Shown: in pieces, positions 17,916 to 39,590 of the stretch
How positions within the stretch are numbered: position 1 is the first letter of the stretch
How the letters are laid out: each line of letters starts with the position of its first letter
NCBI GenBank assembly: GCA_963833025.1
Contig: CAWHWI010000003.1
Location: 281,010-345,009 of the forward strand
Reading direction: 5' to 3'
Length of the DNA stretch: 64,000 nt
From: an uncultured delta proteobacterium
GTDB taxonomy: Bacteria > Desulfobacterota > Binatia > Binatales > Binataceae
Notes under the pieces: model-generated
The model's input: the letters and a program-made list of their open reading frames with translations, nothing else
What the model was told of the DNA's origin: nothing
Databases searched by the model: none
Translations under genes and position numbers: made by a program

Positions 17916-18039
17916 CAGACCGGTTACTTTAGTCTTCCAGCGAGCGCCAAGGTAGCGGCTATAAGGGCCCGAATGCCCTATAGAACGGCAACCAGCGATC
18001 CAAAGCGATCAGGCGAGCGCCGGCGCGCGCCCGGGCGCG

Positions 18040-18843
18040 CTAATGAATGCTCAAATCCAATGAAAGCCGCGGCGCCTGCGGTTCATGCTGTCTGCTCGGC
18101 CCGACGACCGGGCGAACCGCCTTGCCGATTGAAGTGGTAATACACGCCACACTGGAGACCGCGCCGTCGCTGTCACGCATTGGGACAATTGTCATCGCCA
18201 CCGCGATTTCGACGCCGTCGCTGCGGACCTGGATTATCGGAAACCGGGGCGTGACTTCGCCGCTGAACGCCCGCACCAGCAGCCGCCGGATTTCGTCGCG
18301 CCGGCCCGCCGGCAGCAGGGTCTCGACGCTGCGGCCGACAATCTCGCGGTCGGCGTATCCGTACATCTGACGCGCCGCCGCGTTGATCGCCGCGATCGTT
18401 CCGGCGGCGTCCACGCAATGAACTCCTTCCGGAATCGAGTTGAAGATCATCGCCATCAGCGCGTGGGAATCTTCGCGCCGTTTGCTCTCCATCGCCGCGC
18501 CCGTCACCGACACCAGCTCGTCGAAACCTTCAGGCTTGAACAGGTAGTGAAACAATCCGTACTTGAACGCGCCCGCCACGACCTCTTCGCCGCCGTTGCC
18601 GGTCAGCATGATTACCCGCGTCCGCGGCCATCGCTCGCGCACCCGCTGAAGGACCGACAATCCGTCGCTCCAGCCCAGCCAGTAGTCGGTGATTACGACA
18701 TCGCAGGCTTCGCGCCTGAGATGCTCATTCAACCCAATCGGTTCGTCAGCCGCTAGAATCCGCGCGCTGGGGAATCCGTGCCGCAACCGGGCCTGGATAA
18801 CCATCCGATCCGTCGGGTTGTCTTCCACCAGCAACAAATCCAT
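18040..18843 (-). CDS. response regulator with C-terminal PAS domain (REC-PAS)
   Basis: Receiver domain (LLVEDNPTD…ITDYWL) followed by a PAS-like region (MAMIFNSIPEGVHCVDAAGTIAAINAAARQMYGY). Confidence 0.75.
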   Translation of the reverse strand: MDLLLVEDNPTDRMVIQARLRHGFPSARILAADEPIGLNEHLRREACDVVITDYWLGWSDGLSVLQRVRERWPRTRVIMLTGNGGEEVVAGAFKYGLFHYLFKPEGFDELVSVTGAAMESKRREDSHALMAMIFNSIPEGVHCVDAAGTIAAINAAARQMYGYADREIVGRSVETLLPAGRRDEIRRLLVRAFSGEVTPRFPIIQVRSDGVEIAVAMTIVPMRDSDGAVSSVACITTSIGKAVRPVVGPSRQHEPQAPRLSLDLSIH

Positions 18844-19170: not shown

Positions 19171-19938
19171 CTAGCGCATCTTCTTCTGCATGGCCGGCTT
19201 CTTCGCTTTCGGCGGACGCCCGCGACGACGCTTCTCGACGCCCGTCGCTTCGAGCTCGTCCTCATCCGGCCCGAACGCACTGTCGACTTGCACATCGTCA
19301 TCGGCATTGCGGACCGGCTCGACATGTTCTTCGGCGTCATCCGGATTGCTGAGCTCTTCGGGTCCGGACCAGCGGCCGCCAAACGGCTTGGCCAATCCAC
19401 TTTGTCCGCTGCGAGCTTCGGTGTTCGCTTCGTTCTGGCAATCGACGCAAAACTGCGCGAACGGAATCACCTGGAGCCGCGCCAGCGGGATTTCATCGCC
19501 GCATCGCGCGCAGATTCCATAGACTCCCGCTCCCAGCCGCGCGATTGCGGCGTCGATCGCGCCGAGTCGTTCCTGCGCGCGGTCGAATAGCGCCGCATGC
19601 GTCTCCACTTCGGATAGCGATCGCGCCACGTCCATCTCATCAGCGGGCGGCTGCCCGCCGTTGCGAGCCTGCTCGCGCATCAATTCCTTCACCCGGGCGA
19701 GCGTCTCGGCGCGCTCTTTGGCCAGCATGCGCTTGAGCGCATCGATCCGTCGTCCGCCGGTGCTAACTGCGGCTTCCATCTTGCTCTTCTGCCTCTTGAC
19801 GGTTTTCGTCACGGTTTTCGTCGGTCGAGTTTTGGTTCGAGTTTTCATTTGTCGGGACCGTTCAGGTGCGTCGATCCGGTTTTTAATATCAGCATTGATC
19901 GTGCCTCGCGCCACACTAAGAAGATCGAACGAACACAA
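19171..19938 (-). CDS. DksA/TraR-family C4 zinc-finger protein with long basic N-terminal and acidic/AT-hook C-terminal extensions
   Basis: The core is CARCGDEIPLARLQVIPFAQFCVDCQ, which is the DksA/TraR zinc finger. The N-terminus is KTRTKTRPTKTVTKTVKRQK. The C-terminus is acidic and ends in RRGRPPKAKK (AT-hook-like). The true start may be an internal Met. Confidence 0.7.
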   Translation of the reverse strand: MCSFDLLSVARGTINADIKNRIDAPERSRQMKTRTKTRPTKTVTKTVKRQKSKMEAAVSTGGRRIDALKRMLAKERAETLARVKELMREQARNGGQPPADEMDVARSLSEVETHAALFDRAQERLGAIDAAIARLGAGVYGICARCGDEIPLARLQVIPFAQFCVDCQNEANTEARSGQSGLAKPFGGRWSGPEELSNPDDAEEHVEPVRNADDDVQVDSAFGPDEDELEATGVEKRRRGRPPKAKKPAMQKKMR

Positions 19939-24513: not shown

Positions 24514-25974
24514 CTACGGCGTGGCTGAGCTTGCCCTCTTCACCAGCGGCGGCGACCACGTACCGTCAAGGATCGAAGGTGGCGTCTCCTTCGGCCAGTA
24601 CATCCGCATCATCAGGATGAACTGGCCGGCGGGCGCCGGCAGCCAATTTGCCCGTGGAGCATTCGCTGGCTTTTTGTGCGCGAAGTAGAGATCAAGCGAC
24701 CCATCGGAATTGAATTTCGGATGGTCGCGCAGACTTACCGTGAGCTTATTGAGCGGGTTCGGATAGAAGTAGTACTCGCTATCGTACATCGTGACAGACC
24801 AGAAGCCGTCGACCGGTGGCGATTCATCCTTGGCGAAATGGACGACGTAGGTATTCGTCCCAACCAGCGTTGCGCCATCGGAGTCTGCTTTTGTACTTGG
24901 ATAGACAGCGTCCTTTGACAGGTTTGCGCCCCAGCCATAAGCGGAAACCCCGGCGCGCCAAAGGTAATTCGTGCCATATGCGCCGGTACCGGTGGTGACC
25001 AACCAGCCGTTGACAGTCTTGCCGCCTTTCTTTTGCTGTTCAGCGATCTGATCGTAAGCGGTTTTCCCGACATCGGCCAAGGCCTTTTGCACCTCCGTGG
25101 AGAGCTTGCTCAGATCGAAAGTCTGCCCCGGAACGAGGCCAATCTTCGCCATCTCCGCGACGATAGGCGCGTCTTCAGGTAAAACCGGCGGATTGAGAGC
25201 CATGGATTTGGCCATCCTGCTGAAATACGTCTGCGTGTCCATCGCGCTGATGAGGTTCCGAACGATGTCTTTCACGCTCGGCGCTTTCGGATCAATCGTT
25301 CCGGCGGGCGGGCTGTAAGGCTTGCCATGAGAACTCAGCGGGACGAGCTTAAAATCTTTCTGTAATGCGTTCACCGCGGCATAGTCCTTCGCGGTAGCTT
25401 CTGCGTAGACGCGTGCAATAATGAAAACTGAACCGGTCGGAGATTTGACTTGCTGGGTGATCCCCTGCGGCAAGGTTCCCTCCCATGTAGGTCCGGTAAT
25501 GGCGATGGTCTGAGGACCTGTACCAAGTGTTCGTTTGCCCGGCGCGCCGATCACATTGGTCCACTCGGAGTATATGGGAAAAAGAAAGTACCGGCCGTGC
25601 ATGTCGGGGTAGGAAAGTATGATCGGTTCTTTCGACACGTCGATGAATGCGCCGGAGTAGAGCGTGTCAGCGTTCGGAGCCGTAACACCATGATAATCCG
25701 CCGGCGGGTACTTCGGCAGACTAACGAACTGGTTCAACGGTGCCTGGAAGGTTCGTGGGGAGGGAGCCTTGACGTTGATGAACGCTGCACCTGTGACGTC
25801 GCTAGTGATCAACGAGTAGCCATATATGTATGCGTCCACCCCGATCTTCTGTGCCTCTTGCGGCGTCAGGCCATCCGCCACGGCCCGCATGGCGGTGAAC
25901 CCGATCAATGCAGCCACCGCGACAGATATCAGTAGGTGAGTCCGAATGTCCCTCAAGCGCTCTGGACTCCTCAT
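24514..25974 (-). CDS. DUF1254/DUF1214 domain protein (secreted)
   Basis: The listed ORF begins at 26052, but its first 26 codons are the translation of tRNA-Lys on the same strand. The start is therefore trimmed to MRSPERL… It has a signal peptide and the motifs YLWRAGVSAYGWGAN… and VDGFWSVTMYD that I associate with the DUF1254/DUF1214 pair. Confidence 0.7.
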   Translation of the reverse strand: MRSPERLRDIRTHLLISVAVAALIGFTAMRAVADGLTPQEAQKIGVDAYIYGYSLITSDVTGAAFINVKAPSPRTFQAPLNQFVSLPKYPPADYHGVTAPNADTLYSGAFIDVSKEPIILSYPDMHGRYFLFPIYSEWTNVIGAPGKRTLGTGPQTIAITGPTWEGTLPQGITQQVKSPTGSVFIIARVYAEATAKDYAAVNALQKDFKLVPLSSHGKPYSPPAGTIDPKAPSVKDIVRNLISAMDTQTYFSRMAKSMALNPPVLPEDAPIVAEMAKIGLVPGQTFDLSKLSTEVQKALADVGKTAYDQIAEQQKKGGKTVNGWLVTTGTGAYGTNYLWRAGVSAYGWGANLSKDAVYPSTKADSDGATLVGTNTYVVHFAKDESPPVDGFWSVTMYDSEYYFYPNPLNKLTVSLRDHPKFNSDGSLDLYFAHKKPANAPRANWLPAPAGQFILMMRMYWPKETPPSILDGTWSPPLVKRASSATP

Positions 25975-25993
25975 GCGAACCCTCCGAACTTTG

Positions 25994-26070
<77 letters not shown>

Positions 26071-26100
26071 GTCGAAACTTGCTTACGTAGCAGGATGTTT

Positions 26101-26176
26101 GGGGTGAGTGAAGGGATTTGAACCCTCGACCGCCGGAGCCACAATCCGATGCTCTGCCAACTGAGCTACACTCACC
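26101..26176 (-). tRNA. tRNA-His (anticodon GTG) with G-1
   Basis: G-GTGAGTG…TTGTGGC anticodon loop…GGTTCAAATCC…CACTCAC-C-CC. The extra 5' G is pathognomonic for tRNA-His. Confidence 0.85.
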
Positions 26177-26237
26177 ACCTTCGATCTATTCTATCAACCC
26201 GGCGCCTCGCGAGCCGCCGATCTCACAATTCGCCTCC

Positions 26238-26315
<78 letters not shown>

Positions 26316-26318
26316 GAA

Positions 26319-26392
26319 TCGGGGCGAGCCGATTTGAACGGCCGACCCCCTGCTCCCAAGGCAGGTGCGCTACCAAGCTGCGCTACGCCCCG
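26319..26392 (-). tRNA. tRNA-Pro (anticodon TGG)
   Basis: CGGGGCGTAGCGCAGCTTGGTAGCGCACCTGCCTTGGGAGCAGGGGGTCGGCCGTTCAAATCGGCTCGCCCCGA. It lies 3 nt upstream of tRNA-Arg(TCT). The operon order is Pro-Arg-His-Lys. Confidence 0.85.
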
Positions 26393-26878
26393 AGCCCTTA
26401 GGAAGTAACACACCGACGATCGGCTCTCAACCAAGGTTCCTCTGCGCATCGATTTTTACTCAACAAATGTTTTCATGCGACCGAGCGCGATCCACGCCAT
26501 CGTTGTGTATGACGGCGTCGTCGAGTGGAAGCGCGAACTGTCGAAACAAATTCGGCGGGGCATGAGCATCATCGTATTCAACCCATGATCAGGGCTGCGC
26601 AGTGCAGTCAGGTCGGAGCACCCCGCAGAACGCATCGTTGAGATGCGAACATTATAAGGTCGCATCTGGCGGAGCGGTCGCAACTTGCAAAACTCTCGAA
26701 TTTCGCGGGAAAGTGGCCGAATTCGAGACTTTCACGTGTCCCGCGTCGCAGAAAGAGAAAAAAATTTGATGGCGATTCCTTGAATTCGCTTCGGTTTTCC
26801 GAAGGCACGATGCTTGCTTCTCTTCCTCTTGCGCTGACAATCTCCTCCCCCGAGACAACAGCGTCTGTCCCCAAGCAA

Positions 26879-26947: not shown

Positions 26948-27091
26948 CCAAATCAACCTGCGTCGAATTTTCCCGCGAGGGCATTTTGTATCGCGCGATT
27001 TCTGCTAGGCTAATCGGAACCGAATCGCGGCGTCGATGCTTGAGGCGTTCATCGGCGCGCTGACGATTCGGCCGGGGGTCATATCGATCGC

Positions 27092-27808
27092 TTGAGGCGA
27101 CATTTTTGCGCATCGGTGGTCGCGATATTCGCGTCCGCGGTTACGTTTGCGATCAGCGGATGCTGGATGGCGGCGGCTCAACTCGCGCCGATCGCCGAGA
27201 GCGCGGCGGAGTATGTCGGCGAGGGAGCCGTCGAGCTGACGGCAGGTGTTGGCGCGTCCAGGAACCAGGACGCCAATATCGTGAAAAGAGTAGAAGAGGG
27301 TCGCGAAAGTTCAATGAACAGCGGCGATACCTGTGAACAGCTCGACGTCGAAATTCCAGGTGTGATCGAGTTGCGCAGAAGTGCCGCCGGCGCGCCCGAA
27401 TATCGCGAGCTGCAGGTGACCGATGCGCTCGACGAGCGGCAATGGGCACCGATAGCGGAAAATGGAACGACCGCCGACGGTTGGCGTCCTGCGGTCAATT
27501 TTCTTCAGATGAACTTCTCGCCGCCGCTGGGCGCGGTGGTGCCCGAGACGGCAAGCAGGTTTCTGGCGTACACGCCCTCGAAATTCGTCACGGCGGCCGA
27601 CGGCGATCGGCTCACCGCGATGACTTCGAATTTCGGCAAGCCGCTCGGGACGTTCACCTGGAACGGCAACTATTATCACTACGTGGTGACCAGTACCCTG
27701 CCATGCTTTCCGCCTCCCTCCGAGCGGATCGCAGCGGATATCGCTCCCCGACCGGGTCTCTCAGATCACTTTGCTTTTTCGGTCGCGGGTAGCGAAACGC
27801 GTCCATAG
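27092..27808 (+). CDS. hypothetical lipoprotein
   Basis: Signal peptide with lipobox (AISGC). I recognise no domain. Confidence 0.5.
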   Translation: MRRHFCASVVAIFASAVTFAISGCWMAAAQLAPIAESAAEYVGEGAVELTAGVGASRNQDANIVKRVEEGRESSMNSGDTCEQLDVEIPGVIELRRSAAGAPEYRELQVTDALDERQWAPIAENGTTADGWRPAVNFLQMNFSPPLGAVVPETASRFLAYTPSKFVTAADGDRLTAMTSNFGKPLGTFTWNGNYYHYVVTSTLPCFPPPSERIAADIAPRPGLSDHFAFSVAGSETRP

Positions 27809-29610
27809 CGCCGCGGCAACATCGCTCCGAAGGGGAGCCGCGATTTCGCGCGTTGGAGCATGAAATTGCGGACTGCGCGGCGGGCTTCGTTGGTGCTCGA
27901 GCAGATCTGGGAACATCCCGCATTGATTAGTTCATCAGACTGCTCTTCCGCTGCGGGCCCGCCAGCAATGACCGTCACGCGAGCCGCGATCGCTCGCACC
28001 GCCGGCACCAGTTCCAGCGTGGCCGGCATACATTCGGCGGTCATGCACGAGATGAAGACGAAGTCCGGCGTGAACCGCTTGACCAGCTCGCAAATCTCGA
28101 CCTGCGATTTGTCTTCGCCGGCAAAGGTTGCCACTACGCCCTCTTTGCGCAGCAGCTCGAGCAGCATCAGCAAGCCGAGATAGTGCACTTCGCCGGGCGC
28201 CATCACGCCGAGCACTCTCACGCTCGGCGAGACCAGCGATTTTGCAAACCGGTTGCCGAGCTCGGCGATCAGCTGATGCGTTGTATCGATAATCAACCGC
28301 TGATTCTCATCGCTGATATGGTCCTCCGCACGCTCTTCGCCCATCAGCACCAGCGCCGGCGTAATCACCTCGTCGAAGGTCCGCTCCAGGCCGTTCTCAT
28401 CGCAATAAGCGATCGCGACATCGCGGGCGCCGTCCGGGTTGAGCTCAAGCAACATACGGTAGAAGTCGTGGTAGTCGTCAAGCACGCGGTCCGCCCCAAG
28501 CAGAATCGAGAGGAACGCCAGCGGTGGAATGAAGTCTCCGGCAACCTTCAGGCAAGCGGTCAAAGGGGTCGAAAGCAGCAGTCCCGGAATTCCCCACAGC
28601 CATGACCAGTACATCGCCGAAATCAGCAGCGCGACCGGCGAAACGTCGATTCCGTGGCCGATGATGAATGGCTCGGCAAATTGCGCCGCGATCTGATCGA
28701 TAATCACAAAGCCGCCAAGTATCTCGAGCGCCTTGCTCCACCCGGGAAACAGCGCAAAAGCGACCAGCGCCGGCAGAAGCGCCGAGCTCATCGCGCCTAC
28801 GTATGGAATGAACCGCAGCAGGAACGCGACCACGCCCCACAGCGGCGCGCTCGGCAATCCGAGAAACCAGGCTAGGGTTCCACAGGCGATGCCGTACACG
28901 AGATTGATCGTCGAAAAAAGCAACAGGTAACGGCCCACGGTGTAACCCGCGGTTTCTATCGCTTGCGCCGCGATCGGAACTCGCCCCAGCGCCGCGAGCC
29001 GGACGAATCGATCGCGCAAATCCTTGCGGCTGTACAGAAGGAAGAACAACAGCATCACGATCAGCAGCGTATTGATTATGCCATCGACAATTGGCTCAAT
29101 CGGTCTCAGGCTCTCGGTGAGCGAACTCGGAACCGGCACCGCCATCACTTCGCGCGTCTTGCGGGGCGCGGGTTCGGCGCTCGCCACGCGGCGCTGAACT
29201 TCGGTGACGGCATCCTTGATATGCTGGAGCCACGGCGGCGTGGTCTTTTCAAGCGCCGCCAGTTTGTTCCCGATATTATCCGAGTATCCAGCGACCTGGT
29301 CGGCGACACTAGTCAGTTCAACAGTCAGAAAGTAGCCAATCGCCGAGATAACGCCGACCGCAAGTATTACTACCAGCGCGACGCTGAGGAGACGCCCGAA
29401 GTAGCGCTCGAGGCGGGTTGCAACCGGACTGAACACGACGCTCAGGATGAGTGCAATCGCGAGCGGGAGCAGCACCGGTCGGGCGAAGTATAACGCGGCG
29501 GTCGCGATGATCAGTGCGCAAATCGGTACGGCAACCCACAGCAGCGCGAAGCTATCGTAACTTTCGCCGTATGCTTGCTCTATTTCCTTTTCGATTTCCG
29601 CCACTGTCAC
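27766..29610 (-). CDS. AI-2E family (PerM/UPF0118) transporter fused to a C-terminal cobalamin-binding module (B12-binding_2 cap plus Rossmann-like B12-binding domain)
   Basis: The N-terminal ~400 aa form a polytopic membrane domain with AI-2E-like features. The C-terminal ~190 aa are …LERTFDEVITPALVLMGEE…RVLGVMAPGEVHYLGLLMLLELLRKEGVVATFAG…FISCMTAECMP…VIAGGPA. This is an ExHxxG…SxL…GG pattern, as in MetH/CarH/MerR-type B12-binding domains. Confidence 0.75.
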   Translation of the reverse strand: MTVAEIEKEIEQAYGESYDSFALLWVAVPICALIIATAALYFARPVLLPLAIALILSVVFSPVATRLERYFGRLLSVALVVILAVGVISAIGYFLTVELTSVADQVAGYSDNIGNKLAALEKTTPPWLQHIKDAVTEVQRRVASAEPAPRKTREVMAVPVPSSLTESLRPIEPIVDGIINTLLIVMLLFFLLYSRKDLRDRFVRLAALGRVPIAAQAIETAGYTVGRYLLLFSTINLVYGIACGTLAWFLGLPSAPLWGVVAFLLRFIPYVGAMSSALLPALVAFALFPGWSKALEILGGFVIIDQIAAQFAEPFIIGHGIDVSPVALLISAMYWSWLWGIPGLLLSTPLTACLKVAGDFIPPLAFLSILLGADRVLDDYHDFYRMLLELNPDGARDVAIAYCDENGLERTFDEVITPALVLMGEERAEDHISDENQRLIIDTTHQLIAELGNRFAKSLVSPSVRVLGVMAPGEVHYLGLLMLLELLRKEGVVATFAGEDKSQVEICELVKRFTPDFVFISCMTAECMPATLELVPAVRAIAARVTVIAGGPAAEEQSDELINAGCSQICSSTNEARRAVRNFMLQRAKSRLPFGAMLPRRYGRVSLPATEKAK

Positions 29611-29804
29611 TCACGCGGCATAGCCGAGTTTTAGCCGATGCAATGCGGCTTACAGCTATTTTATGCCACAACCGGCCGATGGGACCATGTTGAACTATAG
29701 TTGTGCCGCTCTCGAAACTCGCCTATTCCGCCCGCCATTCCGCACCTCGGCGTGCTCGCGGTAACCATTGCGGTGACCTCGGCGCAAGCCGACTGGTCTA
29801 GCTG

Positions 29805-30758
29805 TCAGCGCCGGAGCATCGGGATTACTTCCCGCGCGAACTGCTCGTGCTGCGCGTCACGCTCGGCCGGAGCGGAAATGATATCGACGTTGACGTCGCG
29901 AATTCCCGCCTTGACGAACTCATCGATTCGCGCCGCCACGTCCGCCGGCTTTCCCATCGCCGCGTAGCGCTTCGCCGGTTCGCGGAAATCCATCGCGTAG
30001 CGTTTGCTCAGATGCGTCGCCGCTACCTCGAGTGCAGCTTCGTAGCTCGTCCCAAGCGTCACGAACAGATGTAGCGCGGTGCCGAAATGCTCGAACTTGC
30101 GCCCCGCCTTTTCCGCCTCGCGCGCGATGAACTCGAGCCCCTCGCCGACCCGTTTCGGCGTGACGACATACGGCATCCATCCGTCGCCCAGTCGCGCGGC
30201 ACGCTTGAGCGCGGCTTCGGCGCGTCCGCCGACCCACACCGGCGGTCCGCCGGGAGTGCGAGGCTTCGGCAACATCGTGATTTTCCCGAAGCTGAAATAT
30301 TTGCCGCGGTACTCGACCGGTTCGCCGCTCCACAGCCGCTTGATTATTTCGATTGCCTCGTTCGCGCGCCCGCCGCGTTGCTTGAGCGGGATGCCGCACG
30401 CCTCGTACTCGGGCGGAAATTCGCCGCCGACTCCGACGCCGAAAATGAAACGCCCCGCGCCCATCAGACGGTCCACCGTCGCGACCATCTTCGCGACTGG
30501 AACGGGATGACGCAGCGGCAGCAGGTAGATGCTGGTGCCAAAAATCAGGCTCGGCTTGAGCGCGCACAGGTAGGTTAGCTGAGTCAGAGGATCGTCGATC
30601 GGTCCGGTGAACGCAACGTGATCTCCCGTCCAGATACTGTCGTAACCCCACTCCGACAGCGTGTTGACGGTCTTCAGCGCATGCTCGCGATCGGCGGCCG
30701 TCGCCATCGCGCCAAACCTGACTTTCGAATTCAGCGGCAGCACGTCGCTCATGTTCAC
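29805..30758 (-). CDS. LLM-class (luciferase-like) flavin/F420-dependent oxidoreductase
   Basis: 317 aa TIM-barrel LLM family (GTSIYLLPLRHPVPVAKMVATVDRLMGAGRFIFGVGVGG). Confidence 0.8.
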   Translation of the reverse strand: MNMSDVLPLNSKVRFGAMATAADREHALKTVNTLSEWGYDSIWTGDHVAFTGPIDDPLTQLTYLCALKPSLIFGTSIYLLPLRHPVPVAKMVATVDRLMGAGRFIFGVGVGGEFPPEYEACGIPLKQRGGRANEAIEIIKRLWSGEPVEYRGKYFSFGKITMLPKPRTPGGPPVWVGGRAEAALKRAARLGDGWMPYVVTPKRVGEGLEFIAREAEKAGRKFEHFGTALHLFVTLGTSYEAALEVAATHLSKRYAMDFREPAKRYAAMGKPADVAARIDEFVKAGIRDVNVDIISAPAERDAQHEQFAREVIPMLRR

Positions 30759-30773
30759 ACCTCTATCGCGTCC

Positions 30774-31559
30774 TCACACCGATCGCAGCACGCCGCCGTC
30801 GACGCGAATCAGCGAGCCCGTCACGTAAGCGGCCAGCGGACTCGCCAAAAATGCCGCGACCGCGCCGAATTCCGCAGTCGTGCCGATCCGGCCGACCGGT
30901 ATCGCCTGCGCACTCCGCTGGATTGCTTCCTCGACGGAAATTTTCTGGCGTTCCGCGGCGGCGCGGCTCAGCTGAATAGTGCGATCGGTCGCAATCGCGC
31001 CCGGCAAAAGTGTGTTGACCGTTATTCCGTCGCGCGCCGTCTCTGTCGCCAGCGTCTTGGCCCAGCCGACAATTGCGCTGCGCAACGTATTCGACACTCC
31101 GATCGCGGCGATCGGCTCGACCACGCTAGTCGAGGCCACATTCAGGATGCGGCCCCACTTTCGCGCGCGCATGTCGCCGATCAACAAATCCGTGATCCGA
31201 AAGAGCGGCAGGACCATCGCGTTGAACTGCTCCTCCCAGACTTTGGCCGACACACCGGCCACCCCCGACGGCGGCGGGCCGCCGGAATTGTTGAGCAGGA
31301 TGTCGATCGCTCCGAGCTGCTCGCGCGCCGCGTTGGCTGCCGCCTCGAGGCTCGGCCAATTCGCGAGGTCCGCCGCAAATCCCGCAGCCTTGGCGCCGCG
31401 CGACGTGATTTCCGAGACCGCGCGATCGAGCGCCTCCTGTCCGCGCGCAACCAGCGCCACCGCGACGCCCTCAGCCGCGAGCGCGTCGGCGACGCCGCGC
31501 CCGAGTCCCTTGCTGCCGCCAAGAATCAGCGCCGTTTTTTCCTTGAGTTGAAGATCCAT
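30774..31559 (-). CDS. SDR family oxidoreductase (FabG-like)
   Basis: Has GGSKGLG, NNSG and YxxxK motifs. Confidence 0.85.
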   Translation of the reverse strand: MDLQLKEKTALILGGSKGLGRGVADALAAEGVAVALVARGQEALDRAVSEITSRGAKAAGFAADLANWPSLEAAANAAREQLGAIDILLNNSGGPPPSGVAGVSAKVWEEQFNAMVLPLFRITDLLIGDMRARKWGRILNVASTSVVEPIAAIGVSNTLRSAIVGWAKTLATETARDGITVNTLLPGAIATDRTIQLSRAAAERQKISVEEAIQRSAQAIPVGRIGTTAEFGAVAAFLASPLAAYVTGSLIRVDGGVLRSV

Positions 31560-31585: not shown

Positions 31586-32146
31586 TTACGCATCCTGCTT
31601 GTGCGCGCCCGGCAGATAGTCGTCGAGCGGCACGCCGAAACTGTTGAGCGCCCACGACACCAGGTTGTACTGCCCGACGGTGAAAACCGCGTCCATCATC
31701 TGCTCGACGCTGTAGCGCTCGGACAACTGCTTCCAGGTCTCGTCCGAGACGACAGAGTTTTCGCGCAAGTCGTCGGCCGCCTGGATCAGCGCGGCGTCAT
31801 GTTTATTCCAGCCCGCCTTCGGTCCCTTGCTGATGCGATCGATCTCGTCGTCGGTGAGCCCGGCGCTCTTGCCGATTCGCACATGCTGCTCCCATTCGTA
31901 CGGAGCCTGGTTGAGCCATCCGATTCGCAGAATCAAAATCTCGCGGTCACGAGCCGGCAGCGATTGACCGCCCAAAATGTAGCCGGCAAAGCGCGACCAG
32001 CTTCGCGCCAGCTTTGGATTCTGCATCAACACTCTGAAGATGTTGACGACCTCGCCGTTGACCTTGTTGCGCTCGCCCATCTCGCGGTCCTCCGCGCTCA
32101 GGGTCGAAAAATCGCGGAATGGGATTCGTTGTTTTCTCGCAGTCAC
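31586..32146 (-). CDS. carboxymuconolactone decarboxylase (AhpD-like) family protein
   Basis: 186 aa helical CMD family (…PYEWEQHVRIGKSAGLTDDEI…). Confidence 0.75.
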   Translation of the reverse strand: MTARKQRIPFRDFSTLSAEDREMGERNKVNGEVVNIFRVLMQNPKLARSWSRFAGYILGGQSLPARDREILILRIGWLNQAPYEWEQHVRIGKSAGLTDDEIDRISKGPKAGWNKHDAALIQAADDLRENSVVSDETWKQLSERYSVEQMMDAVFTVGQYNLVSWALNSFGVPLDDYLPGAHKQDA

Positions 32147-33883: not shown

Positions 33884-36262
33884 TCAATCGCGCGCGCCCT
33901 GGGACTCTTCGAGCACGCCTTCAGCGACCAGTCTCGACACTTCCGCATCCTCCATCTTGAGAAACGCCCGGCAGATTTCGCGCGTGTGCTCGCCGAGCGC
34001 GGGCGCCGGCGCGACGCGCGGCTCGGGAATCGAGGTCGCGTGAAAAGCCGGCCCCTCGAACATCATCACGCCCACTCCGGGCTGCTCCACTGGTTGAGGA
34101 TAGCCGCGCGCCAGCAGATGCGGGTCGTCAGGCATATCGCTCGCATACATCATGAACCCGGCCGGCACGCCGGCCCGCTGCAGTATCTCCGTTACTTCGC
34201 GATCGCTGCGCGCGGAGGTCCACTCAGTCACGCGTCGATCGAGTTCCGCGCGCGCTTCGATTCGCCCGCGCGCAGTTTCGTATTCGCGCGCACGCGCCCA
34301 GTCCGGATCGCCGAGCGCGGCACGAAATTTACGCCAATCGTCATCGCTGCGAACTGTGATTGCGCACCATCGCTCGATGCCGGCGCATGGGTAAACGCCC
34401 CACGGCGCGCCTCGATCACTTTGATTGCCTTGCGGCTGGACGGCGCTCGGCTCGAGCGACGCCTTGAGCATCAGATCTGCCAGCAGGCCGATAATCACTT
34501 CGACCTGCGCCACTTCCAGGTGGCTGCCGACGCCTCGACTCTCGCGCGCGAGCACCGTGGCGATCGCTCCCAGAGCCAGCACGCGGCCGGCGAGGTGATC
34601 CGGATGAATCGCGCCCGACCCGGGCGGCATCCCGCCTTCCGGAAAGTTCCACAGCCAGCTCATCGCGCCGGCGGTGCGGCTATTCGGCCCGAAACCGATC
34701 CAATCTTTCCACGGACCGCTCGCGCCCATGAGTTGGCTCGAAGCGAACACGATGCGCGGGTTAATTTCGCGCATCTGCTGATACCCCAGGCCCATTTTTT
34801 CCATCGTGCCGGTGGCGCTGTTCTCGATGACCACGTCCGAGACGGCGACGAGTCGTTTGATGATCTCGAGGCCCCGCGCGGTGCGCAGGTTGATGCCGAA
34901 GCTTCGCTTGCATCGGCTCGACGAGGCGAACGACGGATTCATTTCCGTGCCATATATCGCGCGGATGAAGTCGGGGTGCGCGCGCGTCTCGATTTTGATT
35001 ACGTCCGCGCCGTACTCGGCGAACAGCCGTCCCGCTTCGACGCCGACGCCACCGATTCCGAAGTCCAGCACGCGCAGTCCGCTGAATGGATATCGGCGCT
35101 GCGCGGAGTTTCCAGGCGGCGCCACCTTTGCGATCGGTGCGATCGTGTCGCGATCGTGCTCGCCGATGGCGGGAGCACGGCCCGTGAAGCCGAGCCGCCG
35201 TCCGTCGAGGATGAAGAAGCCGTCGGCGACAGGGCCGCGCACGCCGTCCGCCGCTTCGGAATCGCGAAAAGTCTTGCGCGCCGCGAAATGATCCGCCGCG
35301 AGCACTTCGTCAGGACTCAGCACCGGCGTCATCGCGAGGCCGCGCCGCTGCGCCTCGCGCGACAGCTCGAGCCGGGTCTTGTCCTTGAAGAAATCCGCAA
35401 ACATAGGATCGAGGATGTCCGCCTGGATCGAAATCCGCGCCAGCAGATAGTCGAAGTGGTCGGCCTGCAGGACCTGCGGTTCGCCGAGCCACGCGCGCAT
35501 CGCGCGCCACTGCCGCGGACTCACGATGATCAAGCGGACGTAGCCGTCGGCGCATCGGTACATCGTGTAGAGCGGCGCGTTGCCGCTACGAAGTTCGAAG
35601 TATGTGCCGCCGTGGGCTTTCGTCGCGCTGAAGTTCGGCAGCGCCCAATCGGAAGTCTGCGCCGCCGCTTCCATCACGGAGACATCGAGATGCTGCCCGC
35701 GTCCCGTCTTCGCGCGATCCCACAGCGCCGCGACCGTGGCGAACGCCGCCGTAGTGCCCGCGATGTCGGATGCGAGCGCGCCCGGCGGCAGCAGCGGCGG
35801 CTTGCCCGGCACGCCCGATCGAAAGAGCAATCCGGACATCGCAACGAGGACAGCATCGGTCGCCTCGAAGTTGCGATACGGCCCCGACAGTCCGAATGGA
35901 GTGATCGACGTGATGATAAGTGAAGGATGACGTTCGACCACCTCGCGACGCTCAAGATCATCGGCGCGATGCGACTCGATCCACACGTCAGCGGCGTCAA
36001 GCAGACCGTCGAGTCGTCGACGCCCCTCGTCAGTTCCAATGTCGAGCGTGACGCTTTTCTTGCCGAGATTGCGCGCCGCGAAGTACAGGCTGGTCGCTCC
36101 ATGAAATGGCGGGATTGCGCGTGACGCAGCTCCGCCCGGCGGCTCGACGCGGATCACTTCGGCGCCGAGGTCGGCGAGCAGCCGGCCGCATAGCTCGCCG
36201 TATTCATCCGCGTGATCGATCACGCGGATGCCGGCCAGCGGACGCTCAGGTTGCGACGCCAT
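33884..36262 (-). CDS. tandem-duplicated CoA-transferase family III (CaiB/BaiF) fusion protein
   Basis: 792 aa with two complete CaiB/BaiF domains (GIRVIDHADEYGELCGRLLADLGAEVIRVEPPGG…; GLRVLDFGIGGVGVEAGRLFAEYGADVIKIE…). Confidence 0.8.
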   Translation of the reverse strand: MASQPERPLAGIRVIDHADEYGELCGRLLADLGAEVIRVEPPGGAASRAIPPFHGATSLYFAARNLGKKSVTLDIGTDEGRRRLDGLLDAADVWIESHRADDLERREVVERHPSLIITSITPFGLSGPYRNFEATDAVLVAMSGLLFRSGVPGKPPLLPPGALASDIAGTTAAFATVAALWDRAKTGRGQHLDVSVMEAAAQTSDWALPNFSATKAHGGTYFELRSGNAPLYTMYRCADGYVRLIIVSPRQWRAMRAWLGEPQVLQADHFDYLLARISIQADILDPMFADFFKDKTRLELSREAQRRGLAMTPVLSPDEVLAADHFAARKTFRDSEAADGVRGPVADGFFILDGRRLGFTGRAPAIGEHDRDTIAPIAKVAPPGNSAQRRYPFSGLRVLDFGIGGVGVEAGRLFAEYGADVIKIETRAHPDFIRAIYGTEMNPSFASSSRCKRSFGINLRTARGLEIIKRLVAVSDVVIENSATGTMEKMGLGYQQMREINPRIVFASSQLMGASGPWKDWIGFGPNSRTAGAMSWLWNFPEGGMPPGSGAIHPDHLAGRVLALGAIATVLARESRGVGSHLEVAQVEVIIGLLADLMLKASLEPSAVQPQGNQSDRGAPWGVYPCAGIERWCAITVRSDDDWRKFRAALGDPDWARAREYETARGRIEARAELDRRVTEWTSARSDREVTEILQRAGVPAGFMMYASDMPDDPHLLARGYPQPVEQPGVGVMMFEGPAFHATSIPEPRVAPAPALGEHTREICRAFLKMEDAEVSRLVAEGVLEESQGARD

Positions 36263-36284: not shown

Positions 36285-37550
36285 TCAGGCGGCTTTACGC
36301 GCGCTCGGCGTCAGCCGGACCGGCAGATGCTTCAGCCCGTTGATAAAGTTCGAGCGCAATCGTTTCACCGCGCCAGTCCGCTCGACCGACGCAACCCGCT
36401 TCACGAGCTCTTCGAACAGGATGCTCATTTCCATCCGCGCCAGGCTTGCGCCCAGGCAGAAGTGCGGCCCGCCGCCGCCGAACGCGACGTGCTGGTTGGG
36501 CGTGCGCCTGATGTTGAAGACGAACGGGTCGGGAAAAATGTCCTCGTCGCGATTCGCCGAGATGTACCAGATGCTGACCTTGTCGCCCGCCTTGAATTTT
36601 TGCCCGCGCAGCACCGTGTCGCGCGTAACGTTGCGGCGGAAGAACATCACCGGCGACGCCCAGCGCAGGATTTCCTCCGTGGCGGACGTCACCAGCGCCG
36701 GATTTTCCACGAGCATCGCGAACTGCTCCGGATGCTCGATCAACGCATGCATCCCGTGCGACATCGCGTTGCGCGTCGTCTCGTTTCCGGCCACCGCGAG
36801 CAGCAGGAAGAACACATTGAAGTCCATCTCGGAGAGCGTGTCGCCGTTGGCATCCGGTTTGAGTAAGGTTGTGACGATATCGTCGCGGGGATGCTCGCGC
36901 CGCTGCTTCGCCAGCTCGTTCGAGTACATGTACATCTCGATCGCGGCCTGCTGGACCTTCTCCTGGCTGACCGCGTATTCGGGATCCTTGCTGCCGATCA
37001 TCCGGTTGCTCCATTCGAAGAGCTTGTGCCGATCTTCGTACGGCACGCCCAGCATCTCGGCGATCACCTGCAGCGGAAGCTCGGCTGCGACGTCGGTTAC
37101 GAAATCGCAATCGCGTTTTTCGATCGCCGGATCGAGAATTTTCGTCACCATCGCCCGGATGTGAGTGCTGAGCGCGTTGATCATGCGCGGCGTGAATCCG
37201 CGATTCACCAGCGAGCGGTACCGCGTGTGATCGGGCGCGTCCATCGTGAGCATCATGCGGCCCTGCGCCGACAGATCGGCCGCCGCGTCGACGTCCTCGA
37301 GCGCGACCACGCCGCCGCGCGACTGCTCGGACGAGTAAGTGACACCGTCGCGGCCCACTTCGACGACGTCGTCGTAACGCGTGATGACCCAAAAGCCGGG
37401 ACCGCCCGGCTCGTGATGCCTGAAGATGGGCGCGTTGTGCCGCAGGTAGGTGAACCACTCGTGCGGAACCTTGTTTTCGAAGACGAGTGGGTCAAGCAGA
37501 TTGATCTCGCGGACGTCCACAGCGGATTCCTCCCGGAAGCAAATCACCAA
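36285..37550 (-). CDS. cytochrome P450
   Basis: 421 aa with FGGGPHFCLGASLAR heme-binding loop, EELLRW and AGNETT motifs. Confidence 0.85.
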   Translation of the reverse strand: MVICFREESAVDVREINLLDPLVFENKVPHEWFTYLRHNAPIFRHHEPGGPGFWVITRYDDVVEVGRDGVTYSSEQSRGGVVALEDVDAAADLSAQGRMMLTMDAPDHTRYRSLVNRGFTPRMINALSTHIRAMVTKILDPAIEKRDCDFVTDVAAELPLQVIAEMLGVPYEDRHKLFEWSNRMIGSKDPEYAVSQEKVQQAAIEMYMYSNELAKQRREHPRDDIVTTLLKPDANGDTLSEMDFNVFFLLLAVAGNETTRNAMSHGMHALIEHPEQFAMLVENPALVTSATEEILRWASPVMFFRRNVTRDTVLRGQKFKAGDKVSIWYISANRDEDIFPDPFVFNIRRTPNQHVAFGGGGPHFCLGASLARMEMSILFEELVKRVASVERTGAVKRLRSNFINGLKHLPVRLTPSARKAA

Positions 37551-37742
37551 AATAGAATGGGTTCTAATTTACCAAGAGTCGGGCCGCGTGCGTCAATCGT
37601 AAGGGAACGAACGGCCGCTGGCGCGTCGTTCTCGCAGGCACCGCATGCAACGTATCCACTGCATTTGGTCGTTCCCTTCCAGCCGCTAAGTAATCTAACA
37701 TCACACTGGAATTGTGGTTCGATTAGGTCCGGGGAGGTCTCG

Positions 37743-39590
37743 ATGGATTCAGCGGACGCGAAAATTGCCGACGGAGGCGCCACCACTGCTGCCCATGCTT
37801 ACGAGCCATTGAGTCTCAGGACCAAGCTTCTCTACGGCGCCCCGAGTTTCGCCGGCGCCGCGATGATCATCCCGATCCTAATCCTCATGCCGAAGTTCTA
37901 TGCCGACGTGGTGCTGGTGCCGCTCGGTTTCCTCGCCATGGCGATCGCGATCGCACGCTCGCTCGACGCGCTGAGCGATCCTCTGATGGGCTGGATCTCC
38001 GATCACACGCGCACGCGTCTTGGCCGTCGCCGGCCTTACATGCTGGTCGGCGCTCCGCTGTGCGGCCTGGCTTTTTTCTGCCTGCTGAATCCGCCGGCGT
38101 CGCTGAGCGGTGGCCGCGCGGCGATTTGGTTCGGCATAACCTTCATCCTTTACTTTATATTTCACACCGTTTACGTTCTGCCGCACTACGCGCTCGGCCC
38201 GGAACTGACGCAGAACTATCATGATCGCTCCACGCTGTTCGCCTGGCGCGAGTCCTTCACAATCCTCGGCACGATCGTGGCCGCAGCCGCACCCGGCGTC
38301 ATGATGAAGGCGTGGCATCTGACCGACCGCCAGGTGTACTTCCGGCTCGGTATTTTCTTCGGCTTGCTGGTCGCGGTGCTCTACACCTTGCTGGTGGTGA
38401 CGATAAAGGAGCGGCCCGACTTCGTCGCGCGCGAATCGAATCCCCTGGTTCCCGGCGTCAGACGAGCGCTGCGCAACCGTCCATTCGGAATTCTGTTGGG
38501 TAGCTACGTCGTTGGCAGCATCGCCGGCGCGATTCCGGCGACGATGATGCCATTCTTCAACGCCTACGTGATTCGGCCGCCCGATCCCGCCGTATGGCTG
38601 TCGAAGTTGTTGGTGGGCTATTTTGCATTTGGATTTCTGTCGCTGCCGATGTGGGTCTGGATTGCTCGCAGAATCGGAAAGCTCAATGCGTGGCTAACCA
38701 GCTTTTTTCTCGGCATCAGCGGCGGCGGCGCGATGTTCCTGTTGCGGCCGGGCGACATCCATTGGCTGATGGTGCTGATTTGCTGGGCGGGCATCGGATT
38801 CGGCGCCGGCCTGTTCCTCACGCCCTCGATGCAGGCCGACGTGATCGACTACGACGAGCTCTACACCGGCAAGCGGCGCGAGGCGCAGTACACCGCGTTC
38901 TGGTCGATGCTCCCGAAGTTCGTCGCGATTCCGAGCGCGGCAGTTCCGATCGCGATTCTCGCCTCGCTCGGCTACATCCCCAACGCGATACAGGTTCCGC
39001 GCGTCGTCTTCGCGATTCGTGCGATCTTTGCGCTCGGGCCTGCGACTTGCTCCGCTCTTTCATTTCTGATCGCGCGCAGGTTCCCGATCACGGAAACGAT
39101 CCACAGAAAGATCCTTGACGGAATCGCGCTTCACCAGGGCGGCGAGGCTGCCATCGATCCATTAACTGCTGCGATCGTGCCGCCGCCGACACCCGGTCAC
39201 GACGAGGACGTTGGCTGGTTCCTCGACTACTTTTCCAGCGGCGAGTTGAAGCGCTATCTCGCGCGCGGCGCGTCGCAGCCGGTGCGCGACGTTCTCACCG
39301 TCGCGGCAGTGTCGATCGGGGTCACGATGCTCTCGGTTTTCTATGTTCTCCATCGCGTGAGCTCGCTGCGGGCCGATCCCGGCGCGATGACTTCTCTGAT
39401 CGTCGTCGCGGGAGGGCTCGCATTCGCGATCTTCGTCTTCCACATGATGCGCCTTGGACCCGCGCGCCGGCTCGCCGCGGGTGAAGTGCCGACCGATGTC
39501 GTCCGCGCCCATCTCGGCCAGGTCGTCGACGCTCTCCAAACCGGAACGCCCGCGCCCGCCGTCGCACCCAGTGTCGCCAGCGGCAGCTAG
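37743..39590 (+). CDS. MFS transporter, GPH (glycoside-pentoside-hexuronide:cation symporter) family
   Basis: The ATG at 37743 is preceded by GGGGAGG. The upstream part of listed ORF 36891..39590 is antisense to the P450 gene. Twelve TMs are present. The first loop has the GPH-like motif DPLMGWISDHTRTRLGRRRP. Confidence 0.75.
   Translation: MDSADAKIADGGATTAAHAYEPLSLRTKLLYGAPSFAGAAMIIPILILMPKFYADVVLVPLGFLAMAIAIARSLDALSDPLMGWISDHTRTRLGRRRPYMLVGAPLCGLAFFCLLNPPASLSGGRAAIWFGITFILYFIFHTVYVLPHYALGPELTQNYHDRSTLFAWRESFTILGTIVAAAAPGVMMKAWHLTDRQVYFRLGIFFGLLVAVLYTLLVVTIKERPDFVARESNPLVPGVRRALRNRPFGILLGSYVVGSIAGAIPATMMPFFNAYVIRPPDPAVWLSKLLVGYFAFGFLSLPMWVWIARRIGKLNAWLTSFFLGISGGGAMFLLRPGDIHWLMVLICWAGIGFGAGLFLTPSMQADVIDYDELYTGKRREAQYTAFWSMLPKFVAIPSAAVPIAILASLGYIPNAIQVPRVVFAIRAIFALGPATCSALSFLIARRFPITETIHRKILDGIALHQGGEAAIDPLTAAIVPPPTPGHDEDVGWFLDYFSSGELKRYLARGASQPVRDVLTVAAVSIGVTMLSVFYVLHRVSSLRADPGAMTSLIVVAGGLAFAIFVFHMMRLGPARRLAAGEVPTDVVRAHLGQVVDALQTGTPAPAVAPSVASGS

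What the first reader, a model, noticed from the sequence alone, without database searches (positions are those of the whole stretch)
27766..29610. AI-2E family transporter fused to a CarH/MetH-type cobalamin-binding module
- The C-terminal ~190 residues carry a four-helix B12-binding_2 cap (LERTFDEVITPALVLMGEE…) followed by a Rossmann-like B12-binding domain with ExHxxG (PGEVHYLG), SxL-like (ISCMT) and GG (VIAGGPA) elements. This is the same architecture as the AdoCbl-binding photoreceptor module of CarH and the B12 domain of MetH.
- It is fused in one open frame to a polytopic AI-2E/PerM-type permease.
- A membrane transporter with a cytoplasmic B12-sensor domain is not an architecture I recognise. 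It could be a cobalamin-gated or light-gated exporter.
Basis: partly seen in the sequence, partly recalled or inferred. Interest (0 to 1): 0.7.

Follow-up and report, generated by a model that had tools for sequence, protein, structure and literature searches.

The report
Membrane transporter with fused B12-binding domain
A soil bacterium of the uncultured Binataceae encodes a membrane transporter whose cytoplasmic tail is an intact-looking vitamin-B12-binding domain, so B12 may switch the transporter on or off directly; it is very unlikely to be a CarH-style light sensor, and nobody has tested such fusions experimentally.

Summary
Window 27766-29610 (-) is one uninterrupted 614-aa ORF. It has a full-length AI-2E transporter domain (PF01594, 161 bits) and a C-terminal B12-binding domain (PF02310, 52 bits).

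The C-terminal ~210 aa are homologous to the CarH-type module, four-helix cap plus Rossmann domain:
- hhalign gives 99.95% probability.
- Foldseek gives target-normalised TM-score (TMt) 0.85-0.87 to CarH.

PF02607 itself is not hit. The cobalamin motif ExHxxG-x41-SxL-x26-GG is present with exact MetH spacing. It is conserved in Binataceae paralogues down to 49% identity, except in one shallow subclade.

The CarH light signature (W131, E141, H142) is absent and replaced by Arg/Gln/Arg. The "light-gated" reading is therefore not supported.

The fusion is not new to databases. Hundreds of homologues carry both Pfam domains, and a 2024 paper mentions one AI-2E+CBD+DGC protein with a degenerate CBD. 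Distant fusions in other phyla have lost the His (D-E-D). No member has been characterised.

There is no conserved operon partner, no riboswitch and no B12 gene nearby.

Best reading: a corrinoid-binding cytoplasmic regulatory domain gating a pentameric AI-2E-type transporter of unknown substrate. This is inferred, with confidence about 0.5. I file it as a new variant of a known kind, of moderate interest.

The parts
27766..29610 (-). Whole gene: 614-aa AI-2E transporter fused to a cobalamin-binding domain (GTG start; databases annotate 612 aa)
   Evidence: The ORF is listed. A 100%-identical database protein, P0001, sits on a 1.08-Mb contig.
28537..29529 (-). AI-2E transporter domain, aa 28-358
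   Evidence: PF01594 hits at 161 bits over model positions 4-323 of 327. Foldseek hits TqsA, PDB 7nb6. dN/dS is 0.12-0.19.
28246..28497 (-). Conserved linker (D379-YHDFYRMLLE) plus four-helix cap, aa 372-455. It includes R427 (28330-28332, at the position of CarH W131) and H431 (28318-28320).
   Evidence: AF2 predicts helices 379-388, 392-406, 408-428 and 434-453. hhalign to CarH-like profiles covers this region. It is the most constrained part of the protein, with dN/dS 0.03-0.08.
27841..28218 (-). Rossmann-like B12-binding domain, aa 465-590
   Evidence: PF02310 hits at 52 bits. pLDDT is 77-89. Foldseek gives TMt 0.85-0.87 to the CarH CBD.
28174..28191 (-). E474-V-H476-Y-L-G479, the putative lower-axial His ligand motif (His codon 28183-28185)
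   Evidence: Coordinates verified. Among 116 family members, position 474 is E in 80 and D in 35; position 476 is H in 88 and N in 26; position 479 is G in 88 and S in 20. H is kept in all Binataceae clades except one subclade.
28042..28050 (-). S521-C-M523, the SxL motif
   Evidence: S521 is present in 113 of 116 members. It lies 41 residues after G479.
27958..27963 (-). G550-G551, the GG motif
   Evidence: G550 is present in 85 of 116 and G551 in 113 of 116. The motif lies 26 residues after M523.

Best explanation
The gene encodes a secondary transporter of the AI-2E (TqsA/PerM) family. By homology it is a pentameric, elevator-type membrane protein with a cytoplasmic C terminus.

Its C-terminal ~220 residues form a CarH/MetH-type cobalamin-binding module, a four-helix cap over a Rossmann domain. 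The module most likely holds a corrinoid base-off/His-on through H476.

The module has no DNA-binding or enzymatic output domain. The only thing it can act on is the transporter it is tethered to, through a very conserved linker. I therefore propose that occupancy of the module, or the state of the upper cobalt ligand, changes the cap-Rossmann conformation or the packing of the five modules under the pentamer. That change would gate transport of a still unknown small substrate. In other words, this would be protein-level B12 sensing that controls a transporter.

Shown: the fusion, the fold homology, the motif and its conservation.
Inferred: corrinoid binding, cytoplasmic location, the pentamer and the gating.
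For: - Both domains score above the Pfam thresholds.
- The module is homologous to the CarH-type CBD over cap plus Rossmann (99.95% probability). The model superposes on CarH CBD structures.
- The motif ExHxxG-x41-SxL-x26-GG is complete with exact spacing.
- H476 and the rest of the motif are retained across Binataceae paralogues down to 49% identity.
- Purifying selection acts on the cap (dN/dS 0.03-0.08) and on the Rossmann domain (0.11-0.31).
- Nothing follows the module except a ~24-aa unconserved tail, 26% mean identity.
- TqsA has cytoplasmic termini, and the AI-2E family is known to carry C-terminal sensor domains (PMC9475539).
- Genomes whose orthologue has lost the His keep a second paralogue with an intact motif: L014/L055, L018/L063 and L020/L064.
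Against: - No ligand binding was tested, and none can be tested here.
- One Binataceae subclade replaced the motif in concert (D474/N476/S479/[TS]550) yet keeps the module.
- Distant AI-2E fusions in other phyla have D-E-D in place of G-E-H and have lost SxL/GG.
- The one published relative, HaAI-2E, was predicted not to accommodate AdoCbl. The module can therefore persist without canonical cobalt ligation.
- There is no B12-related neighbour, no cobalamin riboswitch and no conserved operon partner to tie the gene to B12 physiology.
- The substrate is unknown.
- The full-length AF2 model has low overall confidence (pTM 0.40).
Confidence: 0.5

Rival explanations
1. The C-terminal module is a CBD-like domain that no longer needs cobalamin. 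It would serve as a structural, oligomerisation or transducer domain under the pentamer, or bind a different ligand such as another tetrapyrrole. The canonical motif in this clade would be an ancestral leftover.
For: - Most distant AI-2E-CBD fusions lack the His (D-E-D), SxL and GG, yet keep the module and the shared linker.
- Some of them add PP2C/SpoIIE (P0263) or DGC output domains (PMC11796333). That suggests a generic signal-transducing role.
- One Binataceae subclade lost H476 but kept the domain.
- The most conserved part is the linker plus cap, not the Rossmann domain.
- From my own knowledge, PpaA/AerR-type CBD-like 'SCHIC' domains were reported to bind haem.
Against: - A leftover motif would not stay intact, with exact spacing, in lineages only 49% identical.
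- In the one subclade that lost the His, three motif elements degenerate together. That pattern is expected if they work as one functional unit elsewhere.
Confidence: 0.28
2. The protein is a CarH-like AdoCbl photoreceptor. Light would cleave the Co-C bond and open or close the transporter, giving a light-gated exporter.
For: - The closest solved structures by fold are the photoreceptor-type CBDs: CarH, photocobilins, CtMerR and AerR.
- The lower His and the overall cap-plus-Rossmann geometry are conserved.
- H431 lies one helical turn from R427 on the cap helix. It could in principle serve as an upper ligand, as in bis-His light states. This is inference.
Against: - The published light-response signature is GxxW/EH (W131, E141, H142) (PMC11796333). 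It is absent: R427 (R113/H3 of 116), Q437 and R438 stand in its place.
- Every CarH-like protein in the same alignment has W/EH, and no transporter fusion does.
- An Arg over the upper face leaves little room for the 5'-deoxyadenosyl group. The same argument was made for HaAI-2E.
Confidence: 0.06
3. The module handles cargo or feedback rather than a general signal. The transporter would move a corrinoid-related compound (cobalt, a lower ligand, a corrinoid precursor). Cytoplasmic B12 bound to the module would shut it off by trans-inhibition, as the C-terminal substrate-binding domains of MetNI and ModBC do (my own knowledge). Alternatively, the module would receive the imported corrinoid.
For: - It shares the motif evidence of the main explanation.
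- Cytoplasmic substrate-sensing C-terminal domains on transporters are an established mechanism.
- The family has expanded to 2-3 paralogues per genome, which is compatible with several related substrates.
Against: - No B12 uptake, salvage or biosynthesis gene, and no riboswitch, sits next to the gene in any of 78 loci.
- AI-2E transport domains resemble small-solute elevator carriers, which makes cobalamin itself an unlikely substrate.
Confidence: 0.12

Closest known systems
TqsA / YdiK (E. coli AI-2E family exporters; PDB 7nb6; PMC9475539)
   Same: The N-terminal 360 aa match PF01594 end to end and hit TqsA by fold. By homology the protein is a pentamer with an elevator-like transport domain and cytoplasmic termini.
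   Different: TqsA ends in a short helix, whereas this protein carries a ~250-aa cobalamin-binding module. The substrate here is unknown, and AI-2 export is not implied.
Larger AI-2E homologues with C-terminal GAF, TPR-like or ATP/GTP-binding domains (Rettner & Saier 2010, as cited in PMC9475539)
   Same: The design principle is the same: a cytoplasmic ligand-binding domain fused to the C terminus of an AI-2E transporter.
   Different: The sensor here is a B12-binding module, which is not on that list.
HaAI-2E, WP_052573826 (AI-2E + CBD + diguanylate cyclase; PMC11796333)
   Same: It has an AI-2E domain followed by a CBD and lacks the CarH light signature. The window's protein probably belongs to the same ancient fusion lineage as the distant fusions found here, because they share the linker motif LLG...YY[QR]RLL..D..A.
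   Different: HaAI-2E has Arg at the H177 position and an added DGC output domain. The window's protein keeps the full His-on motif and has no output domain.
CarH / LitR cobalamin-binding domain (PDB 5c8a, 8c31, 3whp)
   Same: It shares the four-helix cap plus Rossmann fold (TMt 0.85-0.87), the profile homology and the G-E-x-H-x-x-G lower-ligand motif.
   Different: This protein has no MerR DNA-binding domain. W131, E141 and H142 are replaced by R, Q and R. It is membrane-tethered and presumably in a pentameric context, rather than forming a soluble tetramer.
MetH B12 module and corrinoid methyl-transfer proteins (MtaC/MtbC; PDB 1y80 is the best PDB hit by sequence)
   Same: It shares the cap plus Rossmann architecture and the DxHxxG-SxL-GG motif with identical spacing. 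JGI names the region 'MtbC1'.
   Different: No methyltransferase partner domains or neighbouring genes are present. A catalytic methyl-carrier role has no support.

Membership tests
AI-2E transporter family (PF01594 / TC 2.A.86) | Full-length match to the family profile above the curated threshold | tested here: met
   The match scores 161.1 bits against a cutoff of 34.3, over model positions 4-323 of 327. All 53 of 53 family members match.
AI-2E transporter family (PF01594 / TC 2.A.86) | TqsA-like fold and pentameric assembly | tested here: inconclusive
   Foldseek hits 7nb6 at E 7e-8, but with TMt 0.44 and a poor rmsd, because the transmembrane part of the model has low confidence. The oligomeric state cannot be tested here.
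AI-2E transporter family (PF01594 / TC 2.A.86) | Transport of AI-2 or another defined substrate | not testable with these tools
   This needs transport assays.
B12-binding domain (PF02310), His-on class | Profile match above threshold | tested here: met
   The match scores 52.1 bits against a cutoff of 32.1. All 53 of 53 members match.
B12-binding domain (PF02310), His-on class | [D/E]xHxxG-x41-SxL-x26-28-GG motif with correct spacing | tested here: met
   The motif elements are E474/H476/G479, S521/M523 and G550/G551, with spacings of 41 and 26 residues. The motif is conserved in the family except in one subclade.
B12-binding domain (PF02310), His-on class | Actual binding of a corrinoid with His ligation to cobalt | not testable with these tools
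   This needs UV-vis, EPR or a structure of the purified domain. Model coordinates and ligand docking were not available.
B12-binding_2 cap (PF02607) | Profile match to the four-helix cap | tested here: not met
   There is no hit at E<=1 in this protein. Only 9 of 53 members hit at E<=0.1, with a best E of 0.0023. The fold and profile-profile evidence nevertheless place a homologous four-helix bundle there.
CarH-type AdoCbl photoreceptor | Light-response signature GxxW ... EH (W131, E141, H142 of TtCarH) | tested here: not met
   R427, Q437 and R438 stand at those columns in three independent alignments. Position 427 is R in 113 and H in 3 of 116 members.
CarH-type AdoCbl photoreceptor | Lower axial His (H177) in GxxH | tested here: met
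   G473-E-V-H476 is present.
CarH-type AdoCbl photoreceptor | N-terminal MerR-type DNA-binding domain | tested here: not met
   The N terminus is an AI-2E permease and there is no MerR hit. The NCBIfam CarH equivalog scores 35 bits against a cutoff of 400.
Corrinoid methyl-transfer proteins (MtaC/MtbC/MtgC) | Equivalog-level profile match and partner methyltransferase genes | tested here: not met
   NCBIfam scores are 11-19 bits against cutoffs of 215-450. No methyltransferase neighbours are present.

The most novel reading that the evidence does not exclude
Vitamin B12 would act as a direct allosteric ligand of a membrane transporter. The cytoplasmic CBDs under a pentameric AI-2E carrier would bind a corrinoid His-on through H476, with R427 and H431 of the cap over the upper face, and would open or close transport according to cellular corrinoid status. 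This would be a protein-level counterpart of the cobalamin riboswitch.

A sub-variant is that the module prefers photolysed OH-cobalamin, with bis-His ligation as in AerR or light-state CarH. That would make the transporter indirectly light-responsive.
Probability: 0.4. Interest if true: 0.75.

Novelty: new variant of a known kind. Interest (0 to 1): 0.5.

Why it matters
To my knowledge, B12 sensing is known at the RNA level (riboswitches) and in soluble transcription regulators (CarH, AerR/PpaA and related proteins). My literature searches found no characterised transporter controlled by a fused cobalamin-binding domain.

If the Binataceae module binds a corrinoid, it would add a new output class to B12-based signalling. 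It would also give a handle on the poorly understood AI-2E family, whose substrates and regulation are largely unknown.

The family contains a natural series that is ready-made for structure-function work: an intact motif, a degenerate subclade, and D-E-D fusions carrying PP2C or DGC outputs. It could also be of interest for ligand- or light-controlled transport tools.

Tempering this, the architecture is already visible in databases, and all of the biology remains inference.

Tried and rejected
- Cobalamin riboswitch or other RNA element. An Rfam gathering scan of the whole window found only five tRNAs. A permissive scan of the 5' region 29550-29900 found nothing at E<=1.
- Promoter and terminator scan of 27000-30000. 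Results were no better than shuffled controls.
- Conserved operon partner. I clustered the neighbours of 78 loci, and the best neighbour occurs in only 20 loci, all close relatives. The small membrane proteins of clusters 4 and 11 are not positionally conserved.
- B12 genes elsewhere in the 64-kb window. Pfam on 40 ORFs, counting the target gene, found none.
- PF02607 as a test of the cap. It fails at the sequence level, so I replaced it with profile-profile and fold evidence.
- A word-indexed homologue search with the C-terminal module alone. It returned only fragments of the same family, from short contigs or frameshifted long-read MAGs such as P0122 = L033. It revealed no stand-alone relatives.
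- Frameshift or two-gene artefact. Rejected, because homologues are co-linear over the full length.
- MetH or corrinoid methyltransferase membership. Rejected, because there are no partner domains or genes.
- Conserved cysteines (C403, C522, C566, C570) as a possible metal or redox site. I could not test this because model coordinates are not returned. By alignment, C566/S567 replace the A/D of the usual 'GAD' strand. The question is left open.
- A crude hydropathy and positive-inside analysis was uninformative. The topology therefore rests on homology with TqsA.
Full report

Yes. The ORF listing gives one 614-aa ORF at exactly 27766-29610 on the minus strand.

Pfam finds two domains:
- PF01594 (AI-2E_transport) at aa 28-358, E 5e-47, 161 bits, covering positions 4-323 of the 327-position model.
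- PF02310 (B12-binding) at aa 465-566, E 7.5e-14, 52.1 bits against a gathering score of 32.1.

PF02607 itself is not hit at E<=1 in this protein. Only 9 of 53 relatives hit it, and weakly.

NCBIfam adds only a sub-threshold CarH-equivalog match, aa 406-559 against CarH 110-256, at 35 bits against a cutoff of 400.

The quoted motifs are present:
- E474-V-H476-Y-L-G479.
- S521-C-M523, 41 residues later.
- G550-G551, 26 residues after that.

This is the classical DxHxxG-x41-SxL-x26-28-GG pattern of His-on B12 proteins. That consensus comes from my own knowledge of MetH and the mutases.

**2. Is the cap really there?**

Three lines of evidence say yes, despite the PF02607 miss.
- The AF2 model was built on a 53-sequence family alignment. 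It has mean pLDDT 66, but 75-89 over aa 380-590. It predicts four helices (379-388, 392-406, 408-428, 434-453) followed by a five-stranded beta/alpha domain.
- Foldseek against the PDB puts photoreceptor-type cobalamin-binding domains on top. The CarH CBD entries 8c31 and 8c73 match at target-normalised TM-score (TMt) 0.85-0.87, rmsd 2.3-2.9 A, over about 204 aligned columns. That length is cap plus Rossmann together. Photocobilins 8j2y/8j2w, CtMerR 8jbs, LitR 3whp and AerR 7te2 follow. TqsA 7nb6 matches the N-terminal half.
- A profile of 14 diverse family C-termini aligns to a profile of 20 CarH-like proteins with 99.95% probability, E 1.4e-37, over 208 columns.

**3. Is the fusion genuine and conserved?**

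The protein search returned 832 hits. The best 120 are listed, and all but three of them (P0089, P0102, P0104) carry both names (PF02310 and PF01594) or are otherwise full-length. Most are 600-640 aa long, at 58-100% identity. JGI already labels many of them 'PerM / methanogenic corrinoid protein MtbC1'.

The scan of one genome per species found 197 relatives. The best 79 loci are all from Candidatus Binatus / Binataceae MAGs, many deposited as 'uncultured delta proteobacterium'. The window therefore comes from a member of the Binatota. Several genomes hold two or three paralogues.

dN/dS against seven orthologues:

| Region | dN/dS |
|---|---|
| Transporter | 0.12-0.19 |
| Linker plus cap | 0.03-0.08 |
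| Rossmann domain | 0.11-0.31 |

The module is thus under purifying selection, and the linker plus cap is the most constrained part of the protein.

Short 'stand-alone' hits such as P0122 and P0130 are fragments or frameshifted long-read assemblies. For example, L033 matches residues 2-604 by tblastn, yet its ORF is only 375 aa.

**4. Cobalamin motif across the family**

Counts among 116 full-length relatives:

| Position | Residues |
|---|---|
| 474 | E 80, D 35 |
| 476 | H 88, N 26 |
| 479 | G 88, S 20 |
| 521 | S 113 |
| 550 | G 85 |
| 551 | G 113 |

On a neighbour-joining tree of the 78 Binataceae loci, H476 is kept in every clade down to 49% identity. The one exception is a shallow subclade (L014, L070, L026, L019, L020, L017, L018, L021, L032).

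In and around that subclade the elements change in concert:
- E474 becomes D, H476 becomes N, G479 becomes S, and G550 becomes T or S.
- In the inner part of the subclade, the cap residue H431 becomes S.
- Two neighbouring loci, L015 and L016, keep H476 but already carry D474, S479 and T550.

Genomes with that degenerate orthologue retain a second paralogue with the intact motif: L014/L055, L018/L063 and L020/L064.

I read this as follows. The motif elements behave as one functional unit that is maintained by selection in most lineages and lost as a unit in one.

**5. Is it a CarH-type light sensor?**

The published signature of light-responsive CBDs is GxxW, EH, GxxH and GxxxP. W131, E141, H142 and H177 of T. 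thermophilus CarH are experimentally important (PMC11796333).

Three alignments put the same residues at those positions:
- phmmer against 5c8a.
- MAFFT of 97 CBD modules.
- hhalign.

The mapping is R427 at W131, Q437 at E141, R438 at H142 and H476 at H177.

In the 97-module alignment, essentially all ~220-aa and ~300-aa CarH-like proteins show G..W / EH / GExH..G. No transporter fusion does. Position 427 is Arg in 113 of 116 family members.

CarH-type AdoCbl photochemistry is therefore not supported. The lower-ligand half of the signature is met.

**6. The wider fusion family**

I ran phmmer with aa 372-614 against 1.84 billion representative proteins. It gave 627 hits at E<=1e-3 and 24 at E<=1e-30.

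I picked ten more distant hits of 572-910 aa because their match sat at residues ~370-600. All ten contain PF01594. Eight also contain PF02310, three of them with a PF02607 hit, of which only P0246 (25.3 bits) passes the cutoff of 23. P0183 and P0236 showed PF01594 alone. One, P0263, adds a PP2C/SpoIIE phosphatase domain. One, P0254, is from the verrucomicrobium Synoicihabitans lomoniglobus.

These distant fusions share the linker with the window's protein (LLG...L...YY[QR]RLL..D..A), which suggests one old fusion. However, they have D-E-D instead of G-E-H, 'SALPP' instead of SxL, and 'VGxW' instead of GG.

This matches the only literature mention I found. HaAI-2E (WP_052573826) is an AI-2E + CBD + diguanylate cyclase protein with Arg at the H177 position, and it was predicted not to be a photoreceptor (PMC11796333).

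The Binataceae clade, plus a few metagenomic relatives such as P0177, is thus the part of the fusion family that keeps a canonical His-on site.

**7. Surroundings**

The gene looks monocistronic.
- Upstream on the same strand are a luciferase-like monooxygenase (29805-30758), an SDR (30774-31559) and a CMD-family protein (31586-32146).
- Downstream is a convergent lipoprotein-like ORF with no Pfam hit (27092-27808). It overlaps the 3' end of the gene by 43 bp.
- Beyond that lies a tRNA Lys-His-Arg-Pro cluster.

Nothing among the 40 ORFs I scanned across the 64 kb is B12-related. No neighbour is conserved beyond close relatives, at most 20 of 78 loci.

No cobalamin riboswitch is found, either at Rfam gathering thresholds or at E<=1 in the 5' region. 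Promoter and terminator scans are at background level.

**8. How it most likely works**

The TqsA/YdiK cryo-EM work describes AI-2E proteins as pentamers. They have an elevator-like C-terminal transport domain and both termini in the cytoplasm. It notes that larger homologues carry C-terminal GAF, TPR-like or nucleotide-binding domains (PMC9475539).

By homology, the CBD here is cytoplasmic and five copies hang beneath the pentamer. It has no DNA-binding or enzymatic output, and it is joined by the most conserved stretch of the protein. The transporter itself is therefore the only plausible target.

I propose a corrinoid-occupancy switch. The corrinoid is bound His-on through H476. R427 and H431 of the cap face the upper side of the corrin. 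Binding or a change of upper ligand rearranges the cap and Rossmann domain, or the packing between modules, and so gates transport.

Shown: the fusion, the fold, the motif, the conservation pattern and the absence of the CarH signature.
Inferred: ligand binding, topology, the pentamer, the gating and the substrate. Confidence is about 0.5.

Rivals, with my confidence in each:
- A cobalamin-independent CBD-like transducer or scaffold (0.28). It is supported by the D-E-D fusions and the N476 subclade.
- Trans-inhibition or cargo hand-off for a corrinoid-related substrate (0.12).
- A CarH-like light gate (0.06).

**9. Novelty and verdict**

The architecture is already in public databases and is machine-annotated. 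C-terminal sensor fusions are a known theme in the AI-2E family. One related fusion has been mentioned in print. Searches for AI-2E plus B12-binding or cobalamin found no characterisation.

What is new here has three parts:
- A sizeable, paralogue-rich Binataceae clade keeps a complete His-on cobalamin site on a transporter.
- That site lacks the CarH light signature.
- The family contains a natural gradient from intact to degenerate sites.

I rate it a new variant of a known kind. Interest is moderate, about 0.5. It would rise to about 0.75 if B12-gated transport were demonstrated.

Noticed in passing
window 25992-26393 (-): A tight cluster of four tRNA genes, Lys(CTT), His(GTG), Arg(TCT) and Pro(TGG), lies about 1.4 kb downstream of the fusion gene. 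The 512-aa DUF1254/DUF1214 ORF 24514-26052 as listed overlaps tRNA-Lys, so its true start must lie further in.
   Followed up: partly
window 27092-27808 (+): This 238-aa ORF has a lipoprotein-like N terminus (…AISGC…) and no Pfam hit. It is convergent with the fusion gene and overlaps its 3' end by 43 bp. It is the most frequently conserved neighbour, but in only 20 of 78 loci, all close relatives.
   Followed up: partly
L014, L017-L021, L026, L032, L070 (match at ~8001-9810 in each): This is a shallow Binataceae subclade in which the B12 motif has degenerated in concert (D474/N476/S479/[TS]550). In five of these loci the cap His431 has become Ser. The same genomes keep a second paralogue with an intact motif.
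   Followed up: yes
window 28402-28404, 28045-28047, 27901-27915 (C403, C522, C566, C570): Four cysteines in the cytoplasmic module are nearly invariant in the family: 116, 107, 112 and 110 of 116. Whether they cluster in space as a metal or redox site could not be checked, because model coordinates are not returned.
   Followed up: no
P0263/P0315 (910-911 aa), P0254 (774 aa), P0281 (799 aa): Distant AI-2E + CBD-like fusions carry extra C-terminal regions. P0263 has a PP2C/SpoIIE phosphatase domain. P0254 is from Synoicihabitans lomoniglobus, and its ~155-aa extension has no Pfam hit. In place of CarH G128/W131/H132 they have 'E-R-H', and in place of G-E-H they have D-E-D or D-D-D.
   Followed up: partly
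window 33884-36262 (-): This 792-aa ORF has two matched stretches of CoA-transferase family III (PF02515, 533 bits), so it is an apparent tandem or fused double CoA-transferase. A second single-domain copy lies at 62632-63843 (+), next to an acyl-CoA dehydrogenase.
   Followed up: no
window 36891-39590 (+): In this 899-aa ORF the MFS_2 transporter domain occupies only aa 315-735. Either it has a long N-terminal extension or the listed start is too far upstream.
   Followed up: no
window 16500-18843 (-): An adjacent PAS-histidine kinase (16500-17915) and a receiver-PAS protein (18040-18843) lie here, followed by a DksA/TraR zinc-finger protein (19171-19938).
   Followed up: no
window 55663-59634 (+): This 1323-aa ORF has only a sub-threshold YfhO-like match (27.9 bits against a cutoff of 28.5) and is otherwise unannotated.
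   Followed up: no
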